Shown here one piece after another: positions 1,525-4,121 of a stretch of 4,123 bases of DNA. Position numbers and translations under genes: made by a program. Source of the stretch: a virus. Lineage: Duplodnaviria > Heunggongvirae > Uroviricota > Caudoviricetes. How positions within the stretch are numbered: the stretch's first letter is position 1; every line of letters starts with the position of its first letter. The notes beneath the pieces were generated by a model. That model saw nothing but the letters and a program-made list of their open reading frames with translations, did no database searches and was not told the origin of the DNA. Where the stretch lies: the IMG/VR virus record IMGVR_UViG_3300014970_000029. One strand, written 5' to 3'.

Positions 1525-1713
1525 TTAGTTGATTGTTATCTCTGACTTCATACTCCTGCTCCTGTCAGGGTTTTGGCGTAACTCTTCAGTATTCGGTACC
1601 TTTGCTTTGTTGTGAAGCCACTTATAGACGGCCTGCTGTGAAACTTCGCAAGCAGCGCCCAGTTTCTTTTGTGAACCAACGATATTGATCGCTGTTTTGA
1701 TAGCTGGGTTCAT
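1525..1713 (-). CDS. cro: Cro-like small HTH DNA-binding protein (Cro / YdaS-type), 62 aa.
   Basis: Seen in sequence: ATG at 1713 with GGAGG 5 nt upstream on the minus strand (plus-strand cctcc 1720-1724). Protein MNPAIKTAINIVGSQKKLGAACEVSQQAVYKWL... carries the G-[ST]-Q...LA...VS..AV..W helix-turn-helix pattern of P22 Cro / YdaS-type proteins (established family pattern, from memory). Divergent from a CI-like repressor across an operator-containing spacer. Confidence 0.7.
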   Translation of the reverse strand: MNPAIKTAINIVGSQKKLGAACEVSQQAVYKWLHNKAKVPNTEELRQNPDRSRSMKSEITIN

Positions 1714-1740
1714 AACAACCTCCGTGGTTAATTTGAATCA

Positions 1741-1769
1741 AGATTAAAACTATGGTTGTTTTTAGTCAA
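1741..1769 (-). promoter_or_regulatory. PR-like sigma70 promoter driving cro (and probably Q) leftward.
   Basis: Seen in sequence (minus-strand reading): -35 TTGACT (plus 1764-1769), 17-bp spacer, -10 TAATCT (plus 1741-1746). The predicted start leaves a ~20-nt leader with the GGAGG SD before the cro ATG. The palindromic operator overlaps the -35 and spacer. Not experimentally supported. Confidence 0.5.
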
Positions 1770-1776
1770 CAACCAT
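1752..1776. promoter_or_regulatory. Operator (OR-like): perfect 9-bp inverted repeat with 7-bp spacer, ATGGTTGTT-tttagtc-AACAACCAT.
   Basis: Seen in sequence: arms at 1752-1760 and 1768-1776 are exact reverse complements. Related half-sites occur at 1714-1720 (AACAACC) and 1801-1807 (GGTTGTA). The location between divergent repressor and cro genes is the canonical operator position. Confidence 0.6.
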
Positions 1777-1782
1777 TTTCGT

Positions 1783-1811
1783 TTGATGAAATAAAACCTT
1801 GGTTGTACATT
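1783..1811 (+). promoter_or_regulatory. PRM-like promoter candidate for leaderless cI transcription.
   Basis: Seen in sequence: -35 TTGATG (1783-1788), 17-bp spacer, -10 TACATT (1806-1811), placing a start at or near the cI ATG (1818). There is no SD before 1818, which fits a leaderless mRNA as in lambda cI (established for lambda; inference here). Weak hexamers, so speculative. Confidence 0.3.
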
Positions 1812-1817
1812 TGGACT

Positions 1818-2507
1818 ATGAAAACAACACTCTCAGAAAGACTTAAAGAAGCCAGATTAGCGCGAGGCCTTACACAAAAGGCGCTTGGGGATTTGGTCGG
1901 GGTTAGCCAGGCTGCTATTCAGAAAATCGAAACAGGGAAAGCTAATCAAACAACTAAAATCGTGGAGATCGCGAACGCTTTGGGTGTGCGCGCAGAATGG
2001 TTATCTTCTGGCGTTGGAAATATGTCAGACAGTACAGTGCAACCAATACAATCAACTGTCAGCCATTCCAAATACTTCAAGATTGACGTTCTTGATATAG
2101 AAGTCAGTGCTGGGCCGGGAGTCATAAACCGTGAGTTTGTAGAAGTTCTACGCTCGGTTGAGTACTCGTTTGACGATGCTCGTCACATGTTCGATGGTAG
2201 GAAGGCGGAAAATATCCGCATCATTAACGTGCGTGGTGACAGCATGTCAGGAACGATCGAACCAGGTGATCTGCTGTTCGTTGATATCACGGTTAAATCT
2301 TTCGACGGTGATGGTATCTATGCGTTTCTGTACGACGACACAGCCCATGTAAAGCGCCTGCAAATGATGAAGGATAAGCTGCTGGTTATCTCTGATAACA
2401 AGAGCTACTCACCGTGGGACCCGATCGAGAAAGACGAGATGAACCGGGTGTTCATATTCGGTAAGGTTATTGGGAGCATGCCCCAGACGTACAGGAAACA
2501 TGGATAA
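1818..2507 (+). CDS. cI: CI-type prophage repressor: N-terminal XRE-family HTH plus C-terminal S24 (LexA-like) autopeptidase domain, 229 aa. The ORF track's longer form starts at 1752.
   Basis: Seen in sequence: MKTTLSERLKEARLARGLTQKALGDLVGVSQAAIQKIETGKANQ... is a classic HTH_XRE. Ala98-Gly99 (gct ggg, 2109-2114) is a candidate self-cleavage site; the C-terminal domain has the GDSM serine motif and HVKRL lysine, as in LexA / lambda CI (established knowledge). Start 1818 is preferred because the upstream ATG at 1752 sits inside the operator palindrome and its 22-aa extension has no HTH character. Confidence 0.9.
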   Translation: MKTTLSERLKEARLARGLTQKALGDLVGVSQAAIQKIETGKANQTTKIVEIANALGVRAEWLSSGVGNMSDSTVQPIQSTVSHSKYFKIDVLDIEVSAGPGVINREFVEVLRSVEYSFDDARHMFDGRKAENIRIINVRGDSMSGTIEPGDLLFVDITVKSFDGDGIYAFLYDDTAHVKRLQMMKDKLLVISDNKSYSPWDPIEKDEMNRVFIFGKVIGSMPQTYRKHG

Positions 2508-2573
2508 TCAGTACTGTGCTGATGAGTCGTTTAGGGGATAGTAAATTTAATTAGAATTAGACGAGAGCGATTT

Positions 2574-3437
2574 ATGGATTGTGACGCTTTACAGGATATA
2601 AAAATCTCTCTTAGGTATGACGGAAAAGATGCTTTAAATCATGAAATAGATTTGAACTGCCTAGGAGAATCCCTAAAGGGTTTTTCTAAAGTTCTCTCAA
2701 CAGCAGCTTCTTTCTCTGTTACACAAAAATATAGTAAATACATTAATTATCAGGAAGTTAAGGTTTACGCACGCGAAGCAAAAGCTAACTGCTTTACTCT
2801 TGAAGCAGTTCTTAACTTCGCCACTCAGAACCAGTTGTTCTCGGGGATCGCCGCAACTATACTTGGCGCAATACTACAATATATTTTTGCGAGAAATTCT
2901 AACAAGAAAGATGAAATGAAAGCTTTGCAGCAGTCACTTGAAAAGGCCATAGAGGCACTAGGAAACAAGGATGCTGGAACCATTGATAAGTTGATCTCTT
3001 TGATTGACCGAATGGCTGTAGAGCTTCGCCCCTCTGTAAGGCAGGCAGTATCACCTATTGGTAATACTTGCGATCAGATAAGTGTTGCAACAAATGTTGA
3101 CGGCTGCCTTCTAAAAGTTAACGAGAGAGATAAAGCTGAAATTGATAGGCTTGATGATGATGAAGTTCTCGGTCTTCGTGAGTATCGTGCTTTTCTTACA
3201 GAATTTGATGCACAAAATATGACAGCTAAAATAATTTTAGATGGTGATGACTCAAAAAAGAGAATCACTGCTGAAATTAGCGATCCAGCTGCAGGAAAGA
3301 AGAATAACCCGTATATTAGAGCTCTTAGTGCATATATATCAACCAAAGGTGATCCATCTGCAGTATTCACTATAACCGCAAAGGCTACTGTTAAAAAAGG
3401 CCAGATAAACAGGTTATTTATTGTAGATGCGAAATGA
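2574..3437 (+). CDS. Uncharacterized 287-aa protein in the cI-downstream (rexAB-equivalent) slot. Candidate prophage accessory / phage-exclusion gene. No family recognised.
   Basis: Seen in sequence: long ORF with ATG 2574, a weak-to-moderate SD-like AGAG ~8 nt upstream, TGA at 3435-3437, immediately followed by an intrinsic terminator. Same strand as cI with a 66-bp gap and no hairpin terminator, so likely co-transcribed. Visibly AT-rich relative to its neighbours. One ~19-residue hydrophobic segment (about residues 88-106, [19 protein letters not shown]) and a charged helical-looking segment ([41 protein letters not shown]). The only competing ORF here is an antisense, low-complexity one. 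Confidence 0.75.
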
Positions 3438-3441
3438 TTTC

Positions 3442-3468
3442 CCCGGCCGTCGTGCCGGGTTTTCTTTT
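3442..3468 (+). terminator. Rho-independent terminator ending the cI / 287-aa ORF transcription unit.
   Basis: Seen in sequence: stem CCCGGC (3442-3447) / GCCGGG (3454-3459), 6-nt loop cgtcgt, then TTTTCTTTT (3460-3468), starting 5 bp after the stop codon. Confidence 0.7.
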
Positions 3469-3560: not shown

Positions 3561-3660
3561 AAATACAACCAGTTATATCTAAAACAACCAATAAAACAAC
3601 TTTTGTTGTTGACGATAAAACAACTATAGTTTTAAATAAGTTCATCGCAACAACACAACG
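3561..3660. promoter_or_regulatory. OL-like operator/promoter region: cluster of AACAAC / GTTGTT motifs sharing the OR half-site, with promoter-like hexamers.
   Basis: Seen in sequence: TACAACC 3564-3570 (reverse complement of GGTTGTA at 1801-1807); AAAACAAC at 3581-3588, 3593-3600 and 3617-3624; AACAACCAAT 3583-3592 resembles the OR arm AACAACCAT; inverted pair AACAAC-tttt-GTTGTT 3595-3610; 10-bp perfect palindrome AACTATAGTT 3622-3631; CAACAACACAAC 3648-3659. Plus-strand -35-like TTGACG 3609-3614 with TTAAAT 3632-3637 after a 17-bp spacer. Direction and exact operator boundaries are unresolved. Confidence 0.35.
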
Positions 3661-3693
3661 ATACGGCAACTACCTGATTCACCGTTGCGATGA
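3642..3693. repeat. 10-bp perfect inverted repeat TCATCGCAAC ... GTTGCGATGA separated by 32 nt.
   Basis: Seen in sequence: arms at 3642-3651 and 3684-3693 are exact reverse complements. Could form a stem-loop in a leader RNA or be a protein-binding site. Confidence 0.3.
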
Positions 3694-3830
3694 CCGCTTA
3701 GATCCGCAGTTTGAATTTCAGCAGGCTTCGGGGAGTGCGAGGGGTGAAACGGACGCGTGAACGTCGGTGTGACCAGCTGAAATTAACTCAACATTTCATA
3801 CCTTAGTCGCTTCAACGAGGCGGCTTAGTT

Positions 3831-4121
3831 ATGACAACCGGCGGCCATCCACCGCCTGAATACGCGCAGAAGTCTCTATATGTTCAGCAGCCCAGCTTAC
3901 GGGCAGGAGTTTTTATGGTTCATCAACATTATGGAACGCAGACCGTTAATCGAGGTGCGGTCATGCCAGGAATGCTGGTCAAACACAAAGATGGTACCTG
4001 GACTGCATCAGCTAATTTACGCGGACGGCTTTATCTGCATCGCGGCATCGAGCGCACTTATACCCGTGATTTGCTCGTGGAAGTTTTTCTCGACGGACGC
4101 GGTAACGGCCTGAATCACTAA
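3831..4121 (+). CDS. Hypothetical protein, 96 aa, GC-rich. Function unknown.
   Basis: Seen in sequence: ATG at 3831 with GAGG 10 nt upstream and TAA at 4119-4121. I checked the minus strand by eye here and all three frames are interrupted by stops, so no competing antisense gene. No recognisable motif; not arginine-rich, so not an obvious N-type antiterminator. The overlapping alternative-frame ORF 3880-4113 is Cys/Trp-rich and less protein-like. Confidence 0.4.
   Translation: MTTGGHPPPEYAQKSLYVQQPSLRAGVFMVHQHYGTQTVNRGAVMPGMLVKHKDGTWTASANLRGRLYLHRGIERTYTRDLLVEVFLDGRGNGLNH

What the first reader, a model, noticed from the sequence alone, without database searches (positions are those of the whole stretch)
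2574..3437. Unassigned AT-rich 287-aa gene in the rexAB-equivalent slot of the immunity region: candidate novel prophage defense / exclusion gene
Seen in sequence: the ORF lies directly downstream of the CI repressor on the same strand (66-bp gap, no terminator between them). It ends at a strong intrinsic terminator (3442-3468) and is followed by an operator-like AACAAC array, so it is embedded in the immunity region as cI - X - terminator - OL. Established knowledge: in lambda that slot holds rexA-rexB (abortive infection / exclusion), and other lambdoid phages carry different exclusion cargo near their immunity region (sieB in P22, stk in 933W). It is therefore a recognised hotspot for lysogen-expressed anti-phage genes. 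Seen in sequence: the gene is visibly more AT-rich than cI and the downstream ORF, suggesting separate acquisition. The protein has no motif I can assign; it has an N-terminal ~85-aa region, a single ~19-aa hydrophobic segment and a charged helical-looking segment. Inference: a single-gene, repressor-co-expressed phage-exclusion or abortive-infection protein, possibly membrane-associated.
Basis: partly seen in the sequence, partly recalled or inferred. Interest (0 to 1): 0.85.

Follow-up and report, generated by a model that had tools for sequence, protein, structure and literature searches.

The report
Untested defence candidate beside prophage repressor
A 287-residue protein of unknown function sits as swappable cargo just after the repressor gene of an E. 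coli prophage; it is the counterpart of gene 40A of phage phi80 and a strong but still untested candidate for a gene that protects the lysogen from other phages.

Summary
ORF 2574-3437 is a real gene under strong purifying selection (dN/dS 0.06). It lies 66 bp after a CI/S24 repressor, with no terminator between them. It ends 4 nt before a GC-stem/U-tract terminator and is much more AT-rich than its neighbours (GC3 29.5% vs 50%).

It is not unassignable. It matches Pfam DUF7946 + DUF7947 and is 62% identical to phage phi80 gene 40A, which occupies the same cI-to-OL slot.

In 15 of 20 related loci outside E. coli, the family sits co-oriented just downstream of a repressor. Near-identical copies follow unrelated repressors. 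With an identical E. coli CI protein, the slot can be empty, hold two other small genes, or hold this gene.

The AlphaFold model (pLDDT 91.5) shows a novel alpha/beta-helical N-domain and a C-terminal OB fold. No solved structure matches the whole protein, and there is no RexA/RexB homology.

The exact protein is listed as an untested "predicted novel defense gene" by DefensePredictor (log-odds 6.3-7.5). Its N-terminus is distantly related to PADLOC candidate PDC-S42. Phi80 lysogens block T4, but the responsible gene is unmapped.

Verdict: a well-supported but unproven single-gene defence candidate. Membrane anchoring is doubtful.

The parts
1714..1817 (.). OR-like divergent control region between the cro-like gene and cI. 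It carries AACAACC half-sites and the palindrome ATGGTTGTT-N7-AACAACCAT (1752-1776).
   Evidence: Motif enrichment; palindrome picked up by the scan. Its role as an operator is inferred, not tested.
1818..2507 (+). CI-type repressor (HTH_3 + Peptidase_S24), identical to WP_000858975.1.
   Evidence: Pfam hits; RefSeq annotation. An allele covering at least 80% of the gene is present in 1520 of 5426 E. coli genomes.
2508..2573 (+). 66-bp cI-to-X spacer with a GAGAG Shine-Dalgarno-like motif. It contains no intrinsic terminator and no sigma-70 consensus promoter.
   Evidence: Two hairpins are predicted, neither followed by a U-tract; the second pairs with the SD-like region (weak, z = -2.2).
2537..3441 (+). 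Variable cargo cassette relative to prophages with the same CI. The left edge is 2504 against an empty slot and 2537 against the two-ORF cargo. The right edge is always 3441.
   Evidence: blastn of the window against L013, L014 and L015, with their annotations.
2574..3437 (+). Gene X, 287 aa, WP_000340376.1; a member of the phi80 gp40A family.
   Evidence: ORF; Pfam DUF7946 and DUF7947; phrog_5147 at 1.5e-178; 62% identity to phi80 40A; dN/dS 0.06.
2604..3146 (+). DUF7946 domain (residues 11-191). It consists of a three-stranded sheet, four long helices and a beta-hairpin. The conserved motif is RYDGxDAxxHxIxLxxLGxSLxG, with C73 (Cys or Ser), E114 and P161-I-G-x-x-C166 also conserved.
2835..2891 (+). 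Hydrophobic helix [19 protein letters not shown] (residues 88-106).
   Evidence: Kyte-Doolittle mean 1.85. It is the most hydrophobic window in 93 of 122 relatives, but only 66 of 122 reach 1.6. It follows a two-in-four hydrophobic pattern whose other positions are charged in distant relatives.
3174..3434 (+). DUF7947 domain (residues 201-287), an OB fold. Nearly invariant D237-P238, N245, Y247 and K270.
3442..3468 (+). Intrinsic terminator CCCGGC-CGTCGT-GCCGGG followed by TTTTCTTTT. It is shared by all slot variants, so it terminates the cI(-cargo) transcript.
   Evidence: It is also conserved next to X in Klebsiella.
3583..3650 (.). OL/PL-like region with AACAAC half-sites, including the palindrome AACAAC-TTTT-GTTGTT. 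A TTGACG hexamer with a possible -10 element faces kil.
   Evidence: and direct reading. The promoter assignment is inferred.
3915..4121 (+). Kil-family cell-division inhibitor, the first gene of the early-left operon. It marks the far side of the slot.
   Evidence: phrog_294 at 1.2e-38; RefSeq annotation.

Best explanation
Gene X is a mobile accessory gene (a moron) inserted between the prophage repressor gene and the repressor's own terminator. It is therefore made continuously in the lysogen from the cI maintenance transcript.

Its most likely job is to protect the lysogen, and with it the prophage, against other phages. It appears to act as a stand-alone single protein and is not related in sequence to RexA, RexB, SieB or BstA.

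Proposed working model (inferred, not shown):
- The C-terminal OB fold is the recognition module. Its invariant D237-P238, N245, Y247 and K270 would bind a phage-derived nucleic acid or protein.
- The N-terminal DUF7946 domain is the effector. It is built around an unusually hydrophobic helix and would act by a conformational change that leads to oligomerisation or membrane perturbation.
- The outcome would be exclusion or abortive infection.

Shown here: gene reality, operon position, cassette behaviour, family and fold. Inferred: expression, the anti-phage role and the mechanism.
For: 1. Operon position. The gap after cI is 66 bp with no terminator. Cassette homology resumes exactly at the terminator stem that all slot variants share.

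2. Slot variability. With an identical CI protein, the slot is empty in ST131, holds two small ORFs in other strains, or holds X. X is present in 77 of 5426 E. coli genomes, against 1520 that carry the cI allele.

3. Conserved position elsewhere. The same co-oriented position downstream of a repressor is found in phi80, Erwinia, Enterobacter, Neisseria, three Mannheimia loci, three Morganella loci, two Vitreoscilla loci and three Klebsiella loci.

4. Independence from the repressor. X copies that are 97-100% identical sit behind repressors that are at most 31% identical or cannot be aligned. The association is therefore with the position, not with a particular repressor.

5. Selection and retention. 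dN/dS is 0.06. All 77 copies are at least 99% identical, and 75 of them are uninterrupted (two carry IS1 insertions). The gene is retained in a prophage that has lost its replication and nin region.

6. Foreign composition. GC3 is 29.5% against about 50% in neighbouring genes.

7. Links to defence:
- The exact protein WP_000340376.1 is listed as a "Predicted novel defense gene", with log-odds 6.28 and 7.45 against a cut-off of 4, in the DefensePredictor supplement (PMC13092281).
- 38 of 122 family members hit PADLOC candidate PDC-S42, with a best E-value of 3.2e-8.
- Outside the cI slot, the neighbours include Abi_2 and SIR2_2 genes.
- In the same study, a transcription unit made of a CI repressor plus a hypothetical gene (DS-34) was validated as defensive.

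8. Phenotype of a relative. Lysogens of phi80, which carries the 62%-identical 40A in this slot, do not plate T4 and lower the P1 yield 10-fold. Lambda lysogens do neither (PMC2885432).

9. Architecture. The two-domain layout is fixed and never fused to other domains. The C-terminal domain is an OB fold.
Against: - No experiment on this gene or any relative was found. The gene was not among the 118 transcription units cloned in the DefensePredictor study.
- The phi80 T4 and P1 phenotypes are not mapped to 40A, and phi80 has other candidate accessory genes.
- PDC-S42 is itself only a computational candidate, and the match covers only about 110 N-terminal residues.
- No enzymatic or known effector motif was found, and no solved structure matches the whole protein. 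The mechanism is therefore a guess.
- Co-transcription with cI is inferred from sequence only.
- 5 of the 20 related loci outside E. coli are not next to a repressor (L004, L006, L012, L019 and L020).
Confidence: 0.55

Rival explanations
1. Membrane-anchored superinfection exclusion. Helix 88-106 would be a true transmembrane segment, and the protein would sit in the inner membrane and block DNA entry of incoming phages, as SieA, Sim or T4 Imm do. This is not an abortive, sensor-effector mechanism.
For: - The Kyte-Doolittle mean of 1.85 over 19 uncharged residues exceeds the usual transmembrane threshold. The segment is followed by R107 and K111-K112, which fits the positive-inside rule.
- About half of the family reaches 1.6.
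- Expression in the lysogen is what an exclusion function needs.
- Phi80 lysogens show a complete block of T4 plating.
Against: - In distant relatives the same helix carries charged residues at every second pair of positions, which is an amphipathic, bundle-type pattern.
- AlphaFold gives one compact model (pTM 0.75) in which strands on both sides of the helix have high confidence.
- An 87-residue N-terminal domain without a signal peptide would have to cross the membrane.
Confidence: 0.15
2. Accessory of the lysis-lysogeny switch or of prophage maintenance. The OB-fold protein would tune repressor function, RecA-dependent induction or early gene expression of its own phage, in the way reported for lambda RexA. 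It would not target foreign phages.
For: - The gene is co-transcribed with the repressor and sits inside the immunity region.
- OB folds often bind single-stranded DNA.
- Phi80 lysogens have unusually high spontaneous phage titres (PMC2885432).
Against: - Near-identical X copies follow unrelated repressors, and the identical CI works with an empty slot. A repressor-specific partner is therefore unlikely.
- X is kept under purifying selection in a prophage that can no longer replicate.
- X also occurs away from any repressor, next to Abi_2/AlpA.
Confidence: 0.12
3. A host-fitness moron unrelated to phages, for example stress tolerance, colonisation or an envelope function, as with bor, lom or the prophage porin in this same element.
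For: - Lambdoid prophages carry such cargo, and this window itself has a prophage porin.
- The protein has no recognisable defence domain.
Against: - The conserved placement in the repressor operon, the defence-type neighbours and the machine-learning prediction all point to phage conflict.
- The patchy distribution (1.4% of E. coli genomes) and cassette mobility are typical of defence genes.
Confidence: 0.1
4. An addiction or toxin-like element that stabilises the prophage, with no partner recognised so far.
For: - It is a single AT-rich gene of unknown function with a hydrophobic helix.
- Some non-cI contexts have a small co-oriented ORF directly downstream.
Against: - In the cI-linked loci the gene is followed directly by a terminator or PL, with no partner.
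- It is constitutively linked to the repressor, which fits poorly with an unneutralised toxin.
Confidence: 0.05

Closest known systems
Phage phi80 gene 40A (YP_007947967.1; NC_021190.1 33588-34454)
   Same: 62% identity over 99% of the length, with the same two Pfam domains. The slot is identical: cI, then 40A, then OL/PL. This is the nearest named relative, and gene X is a member of this family.
   Different: - The phi80 gap after cI is 136 bp rather than 66 bp.
- The phi80 repressor is only 24% identical.
- Phi80 has an N gene after PL, whereas this prophage has none before kil.
- 40A has no assigned function. Its record label "acetate kinase superfamily domain" is not borne out by Pfam or fold searches here.
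Lambda rexA-rexB
   Same: Same genomic slot and the same logic: cargo co-transcribed with cI, ending before OL, and expressed in the lysogen. Likely the same kind of benefit to the lysogen.
   Different: - Lambda has two genes (a sensor plus a membrane protein) where this element has one.
- There is no sequence relationship: hhalign probability is below 1% for both RexA and RexB.
- Lambda lysogens do not block wild-type T4, whereas phi80 lysogens do.
PADLOC phage defence candidate PDC-S42
   Same: Similar length (profile of 302 positions). The N-terminal ~110 residues are homologous: E = 1.5e-4 for X, and 38 of 122 relatives match, with a best E-value of 3.2e-8.
   Different: - Only the N-terminal module aligns, so the rest of the profile is not matched.
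- PDC-S42 is itself an unvalidated candidate with no description.
BstA (Salmonella prophage BTP1) and other single-gene defences found downstream of prophage repressors, such as DefensePredictor DS-34
   Same: A single gene of roughly 300 residues located next to the prophage repressor and expressed in lysogens. It is the same kind of system by position and by presumed role (PMC8585504; DS-34).
   Different: - X gives no hit to any PADLOC model other than PDC-S42, and it has no KilA-N/ANT-type domain.
- The fold is different: an OB fold at the C-terminus.

Membership tests
Pfam DUF7946/DUF7947 (phi80 gp40A family) | DUF7946 match above the gathering score | tested here: met
   187.2 bits against a cut-off of 27; residues 11-191 cover profile positions 1-183 of 183.
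Pfam DUF7946/DUF7947 (phi80 gp40A family) | DUF7947 match above the gathering score, placed C-terminal to DUF7946 | tested here: met
   67.1 bits against a cut-off of 27; residues 201-287. The same two-domain layout is seen in 9 of the 10 atypical relatives checked; the tenth (P0159) matched DUF7946 only.
Pfam DUF7946/DUF7947 (phi80 gp40A family) | Full-length similarity to phi80 40A | tested here: met
   tblastn gives 62% identity over residues 1-285, E = 2e-114.
Lambda Rex system (RexA + RexB) | Sequence homology to RexA or RexB | tested here: not met
   hhalign of the 122-sequence profile against lambda RexA and RexB gives probabilities of 0.3% and 0.1%.
Lambda Rex system (RexA + RexB) | Two-gene architecture with a polytopic membrane partner | tested here: not met
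   A single ORF lies between cI and the terminator.
Lambda Rex system (RexA + RexB) | Location between cI and OL on the cI strand | tested here: met
Lambda Rex system (RexA + RexB) | Exclusion of T4 rII and other phages through loss of membrane potential | not testable with these tools
   This needs plating and membrane-potential assays.
PADLOC PDC-S42 (defence candidate) | Full-length match to the PDC-S42 profile | tested here: inconclusive
   E = 1.5e-4, but only profile positions 4-113 of 302 are matched. A distant relative shows the same partial coverage. 38 of 122 relatives match.
BstA | BstA profile match, or a KilA-N/ANT-like N-terminal domain | tested here: not met
   X hit no PADLOC model other than PDC-S42 (whether that library holds a BstA profile was not checked), and no KilA-N or ANT domain in Pfam.
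SieB / other named superinfection-exclusion proteins | Match to a SieB-type family in Pfam or PHROGs | tested here: not met
   The only significant hits are DUF7946, DUF7947 and the unknown-function families phrog_5147, phrog_3243 and phrog_13337.
Integral membrane (single-pass) exclusion proteins | A conserved transmembrane helix | tested here: inconclusive
   The Kyte-Doolittle mean is 1.85 in X, and 66 of 122 relatives reach 1.6. Distant relatives carry charges in the helix, and the AlphaFold model is compact.
OB-fold domains | Five-stranded barrel that superimposes on known OB folds | tested here: met
Acetate kinase (ASKHA) superfamily, as labelled in the phi80 record | Acetate kinase / ASKHA domain or fold | tested here: not met

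The most novel reading that the evidence does not exclude
The DUF7946/DUF7947 proteins (the phi80 gp40A family) would be a new, widespread, single-polypeptide phage-exclusion system. They would be carried as a cassette behind the repressors of many temperate phages of Gamma- and Betaproteobacteria. An OB-fold sensor would be coupled to a novel effector domain built around a latent hydrophobic helix, making it functionally a one-protein counterpart of RexAB. It would also be the unmapped determinant of the resistance of phi80 lysogens to wild-type T4 and of their partial resistance to P1.
Probability: 0.2. Interest if true: 0.75.

Novelty: new variant of a known kind. Interest (0 to 1): 0.55.

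Why it matters
If the prediction holds, a protein family with no characterised relative and no matching solved fold would join the known anti-phage systems. The family comprises 495 clusters at 50% identity.

It would assign a function to a gene that has sat unexplained next to cI in the classical phage phi80 since the 1980s. It could also explain why phi80 lysogens resist T4.

The locus further shows, at base-pair resolution, that the stretch between a repressor gene and its terminator is a cargo site. Unrelated cassettes are exchanged there among prophages with different immunities. That site could be mined systematically for further lysogen-expressed genes.

Tried and rejected
- **Sequence search of PDB chains:** no hit at E up to 10.
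- **Rfam on the whole window:** one chance-level miRNA hit and nothing in the PL-kil gap.
- **Megablast of the gene against the phage collection:** no match. Only tblastn found phi80.
- **"Acetate kinase superfamily" label of phi80 40A:** rejected.
- **RexA/RexB homology:** rejected.
- **Other recently described prophage defences:** HepS is a HEPN protein, GiPD474 is an ATPase and SNIPE is a membrane nuclease. I judged these to be different proteins from the papers' descriptions only, not by sequence comparison.
- **Search for fused domains in atypical relatives:** none found; nine of the ten atypical relatives checked have the same two domains (the tenth matched DUF7946 only) and none carries any other domain.
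- **Genomic context of distant metagenomic relatives:** the contigs were too short to be informative.
- **Alternative cargo in the same slot (87 aa + 147 aa):** no Pfam or PADLOC assignment.
- **Literature:** no paper contains DUF7946, DUF7947 or PDC-S42. The phi80 genome paper (Rotman et al. 2012, PMC3510586) and Brenes & Laub 2025 are not held. I therefore could not check whether either says anything about 40A or this family.
- **First structure model:** the run with 23 close sequences was poor in the N-domain (pLDDT 72.8). It was replaced by the 122-sequence run.
- **Model coordinates:** they are not returned, so I could not measure the burial of helix 88-106 or the proximity of H23, C73 and C166.
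Full report
**What is in the window.** The 4123-bp window is 100% identical to part of a DLP12-like lambdoid prophage at the argU tRNA site of E. coli strain 2017.11.01CC. From left to right it holds:
- the 3' part of a prophage porin gene (1-889);
- a Q antiterminator on the minus strand (1079-1462);
- a cro/YdaS-like gene (1525-1713, minus strand);
- a CI repressor with HTH_3 and Peptidase_S24 domains (1818-2507);
- the ORF in question (2574-3437);
- an intrinsic terminator (3442-3468);
- an AACAAC-rich operator/promoter region (about 3583-3650);
- a Kil-family division inhibitor (3915-4121).

Compared with an intact relative (NZ_CP048821.1), about 6.7 kb between Q and cro is deleted. The missing stretch carries the nin region, P, O and ydaT. 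The prophage is therefore defective, yet it keeps cI and the ORF.

**Check of the observation.**
- The gap after cI is 66 bp.
- No terminator-like site lies between the two genes on the + strand.
- The only canonical terminator is CCCGGC-CGTCGT-GCCGGG followed by TTTTCTTTT, with a folding energy of -12.1 kcal/mol.
- AACAACY occurs 8 times against 1.5 expected, with 0 of 200 shuffles reaching 8. It clusters on both sides of the cI-X unit.
- The ORF has 38.4% GC and GC3 29.5%, against 46.7% / 50.4% for cI and about 50% GC for kil.
- Residues 88-106 form a 19-residue uncharged segment with a Kyte-Doolittle mean of 1.85.
- The ORF is a real gene. dN/dS against the Klebsiella ortholog is 0.06 at dS 0.88. 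A profile search of 1.84 billion cluster representatives finds 495 relatives at E ≤ 1e-3, and nearly all of the 150 best that were listed are 265-320 residues long.

**The gene is cargo inside the repressor operon.** The repressor allele occurs in 1520 of 5426 complete E. coli genomes. The ORF occurs in only 77, always at ≥99% identity, and 74 of those keep the same cI-X junction.

Prophages that encode the identical CI protein (WP_000858975.1) show three states of the slot:
- empty (ST131);
- two small unassigned ORFs of 87 and 147 aa;
- this gene.

blastn places the left edge of the variable segment at 2504 (against the empty slot) or 2537 (against the two-ORF cargo). The right edge is at 3441 in all three comparisons. 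Homology therefore resumes at the first base of the terminator stem. Different cargoes are thus swapped between the repressor's stop codon and the repressor's terminator. This is the sequence signature expected for genes expressed with cI in the lysogen. Co-transcription itself remains an inference.

**The position is conserved elsewhere.** tblastn finds phage phi80 gene 40A at 62% identity over 99% of the length. It lies in the same place: cI, then 40A, then the OL operators and PL, then nutL and N.

Among the further loci retrieved, a CI-type repressor lies co-oriented upstream in Erwinia, Enterobacter, Neisseria, three Mannheimia loci, three Morganella loci, two Vitreoscilla loci and three Klebsiella loci. 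The Klebsiella prophages are Rac-like. The gap from repressor to gene is 16-866 bp.

The X proteins in these loci are 43-100% identical to each other. Most of the adjacent repressors are 21-43% identical or cannot be aligned at all. The extreme cases are clear:
- In Mannheimia, X copies that are 97-99% identical follow repressors that are 24% identical or unalignable.
- In Morganella, X copies that are 100% identical follow repressors that are 25% identical.

The Klebsiella locus still carries a roughly 30-bp relic of the window-type cI 3' end upstream of X, and the same terminator downstream. This shows the cassette has moved by recombination through these flanks.

Five loci are not repressor-linked. 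One is a prophage labelled as from Helicobacter. One is a Rahnella locus with DinI-like neighbours. One is a Burkholderiaceae metagenome-assembled genome. The other two are Serratia islands in which X follows AlpA and lies next to an Abi_2 gene. In Vitreoscilla, a SIR2_2 gene follows X.

**What the protein is.** It matches Pfam DUF7946 (residues 11-191, 187 bits) and DUF7947 (residues 201-287, 67 bits). It also matches phrog_5147 over its full length. None of the ten atypical relatives checked carries any other domain, and nine of them have the same two domains.

With a 122-sequence alignment, AlphaFold2 gives pLDDT 91.5 and pTM 0.75. The model contains:
- a small three-stranded sheet (strands 9-16, 62-66 and 74-82);
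- long helices at 27-50, 87-108, 112-128 and 134-158;
- a beta-hairpin (168-182);
- a C-terminal beta-barrel domain.

The most conserved residues are G17, H23, S33, G36, P161, G163 and C166 in the N-domain, and D237, P238, N245, Y247 and K270 in the OB domain. Position 73 is Cys in 61% and Ser in 34% of relatives. No known catalytic signature is apparent.

The "acetate kinase superfamily" label in the phi80 record is not supported. There is no detectable relationship to lambda RexA or RexB.

**The hydrophobic helix.** It is the most hydrophobic segment in 93 of 122 relatives, but only 66 reach a transmembrane-grade score. Per-column analysis shows a pattern in which positions 88/89, 92/93, 96/97, 100/101 and 104/105 are hydrophobic. 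The positions in between are small residues in close relatives and are charged in 10-30% of distant ones. Together with the compact, confident model, this fits a core helix of a helical bundle better than an obligatory membrane span. A conditional membrane interaction cannot be excluded. I could not inspect model coordinates.

**Evidence that bears on function.**
- The exact protein WP_000340376.1 appears in Tables S5 and S10 of the DefensePredictor paper (PMC13092281) as a "Predicted novel defense gene". Its mean log-odds are 6.28 and 7.45, against the authors' strict cut-off of 4. It is absent from the table of 118 cloned transcription units, so it was predicted but not tested.
- That study did validate a different transcription unit made of a CI repressor plus a hypothetical gene (DS-34).
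- The N-terminal ~110 residues are distantly related to PADLOC's candidate PDC-S42. X matches at E = 1.5e-4, and 38 of 122 relatives match, with a best E-value of 3.2e-8.
- Lula/phi80 lysogens do not plate T4 and reduce the P1 yield ten-fold, whereas lambda lysogens do neither (PMC2885432). The gene responsible was not identified in that paper. The later genome paper is not in the library, and phi80 has other accessory genes. This link is therefore circumstantial.

**Most likely explanation.** The gene is a lysogen-expressed accessory cassette whose benefit is protection against other phages (confidence about 0.55).

Arguments for this reading:
- its fixed position in the repressor operon, whatever the repressor;
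- its patchy distribution and foreign composition;
- strong purifying selection, even in a dead prophage;
- defence-type neighbours where it occurs outside that slot;
- two independent computational defence predictions.

How it acts is inferred only. I propose the OB fold as the recognition module and the DUF7946 domain, with its hydrophobic helix, as the effector. This gives exclusion or abortive infection by a single protein.

The rivals are:
- true membrane-anchored injection blocking (0.15);
- a role in the phage's own switch (0.12), which is weakened by the repressor-independent association and by the empty-slot variants;
- a phage-unrelated fitness gene (0.10);
- an addiction element (0.05).

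**Novelty and verdict.** The kind of thing is well known: exclusion or defence cargo next to the prophage repressor, as with rexAB, BstA and DS-34. The protein family is not homologous to any characterised system, and the whole protein matches no solved fold. However, the family is already catalogued (Pfam DUFs, phi80 40A) and already published as a machine-learning prediction. I rate it a new variant of a known kind, with interest 0.55. It is a strong, cheap-to-test candidate rather than a surprise.

Noticed in passing
window 1525-1713 (junction at 1597/1598): The prophage is a deletion derivative. Window 1-1598 matches the porin-Q segment of an intact relative, and 1597-4123 matches its cro-cI-X-kil segment. 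About 6.7 kb is missing (rusA, nin region, ren, P, O, ydaT). The cro-like ORF is a fusion with a new C-terminus. Seven E. coli genomes share at least 94% of this arrangement.
   Followed up: partly
window 3651-3914: There is no N-like antiterminator ORF between the PL-like region and kil, unlike lambda and phi80. About 260 bp of apparently non-coding DNA has no Rfam match. The kil frame is also open from an upstream ATG at 3831 (96 aa, against the annotated 68 aa).
   Followed up: partly
L014 4272-4991 and L015 4273-4992 (same slot, identical CI): Alternative cargo in the same cI-terminator slot: two co-oriented ORFs of 87 and 147 aa (WP_000066829.1, WP_012565042.1) with no Pfam or PADLOC assignment. 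This is another untested candidate pair.
   Followed up: partly
L026 3925-4003 (Klebsiella Rac-like prophage): A roughly 30-bp relic of the window-type cI 3' end (encoding ...MPQTYRKHG*) survives upstream of X, behind an unrelated short RacR-like repressor. The same terminator follows X. This is a footprint of cassette transfer by recombination.
   Followed up: yes
L024 5661-7274 (Vitreoscilla) and L019 1446-2408 (Serratia): X has defence-type neighbours. A 537-aa SIR2_2 protein lies directly after X in a Vitreoscilla prophage. An Abi_2 family gene lies next to AlpA-X in a Serratia island.
   Followed up: no
L005 5188-5721 (Erwinia): A Tlde1-domain ORF (an L,D-transpeptidase-like toxin domain) and a 71-aa hydrophobic ORF lie between the repressor and X. 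The slot can therefore hold stacked cargo.
   Followed up: no
window 2508-2573: The cI-X spacer is predicted to fold so that GAGUCGUUU pairs with the SD-like AGACGAGAGC region just before the start codon (z = -2.2, weak). This is a possible translational control of X.
   Followed up: no
E. coli NZ_CP128594.1 and NZ_CP080146.1 (hits H21, H52): IS1 insertions interrupt gene X in two of the 77 E. coli genomes that carry it.
   Followed up: no
window 1752-1776: A perfect 9-bp inverted repeat, ATGGTTGTT-N7-AACAACCAT, overlaps the first possible start of the cI frame. The terminator scan picks it up on both strands. It is more likely an operator than a terminator.
   Followed up: partly
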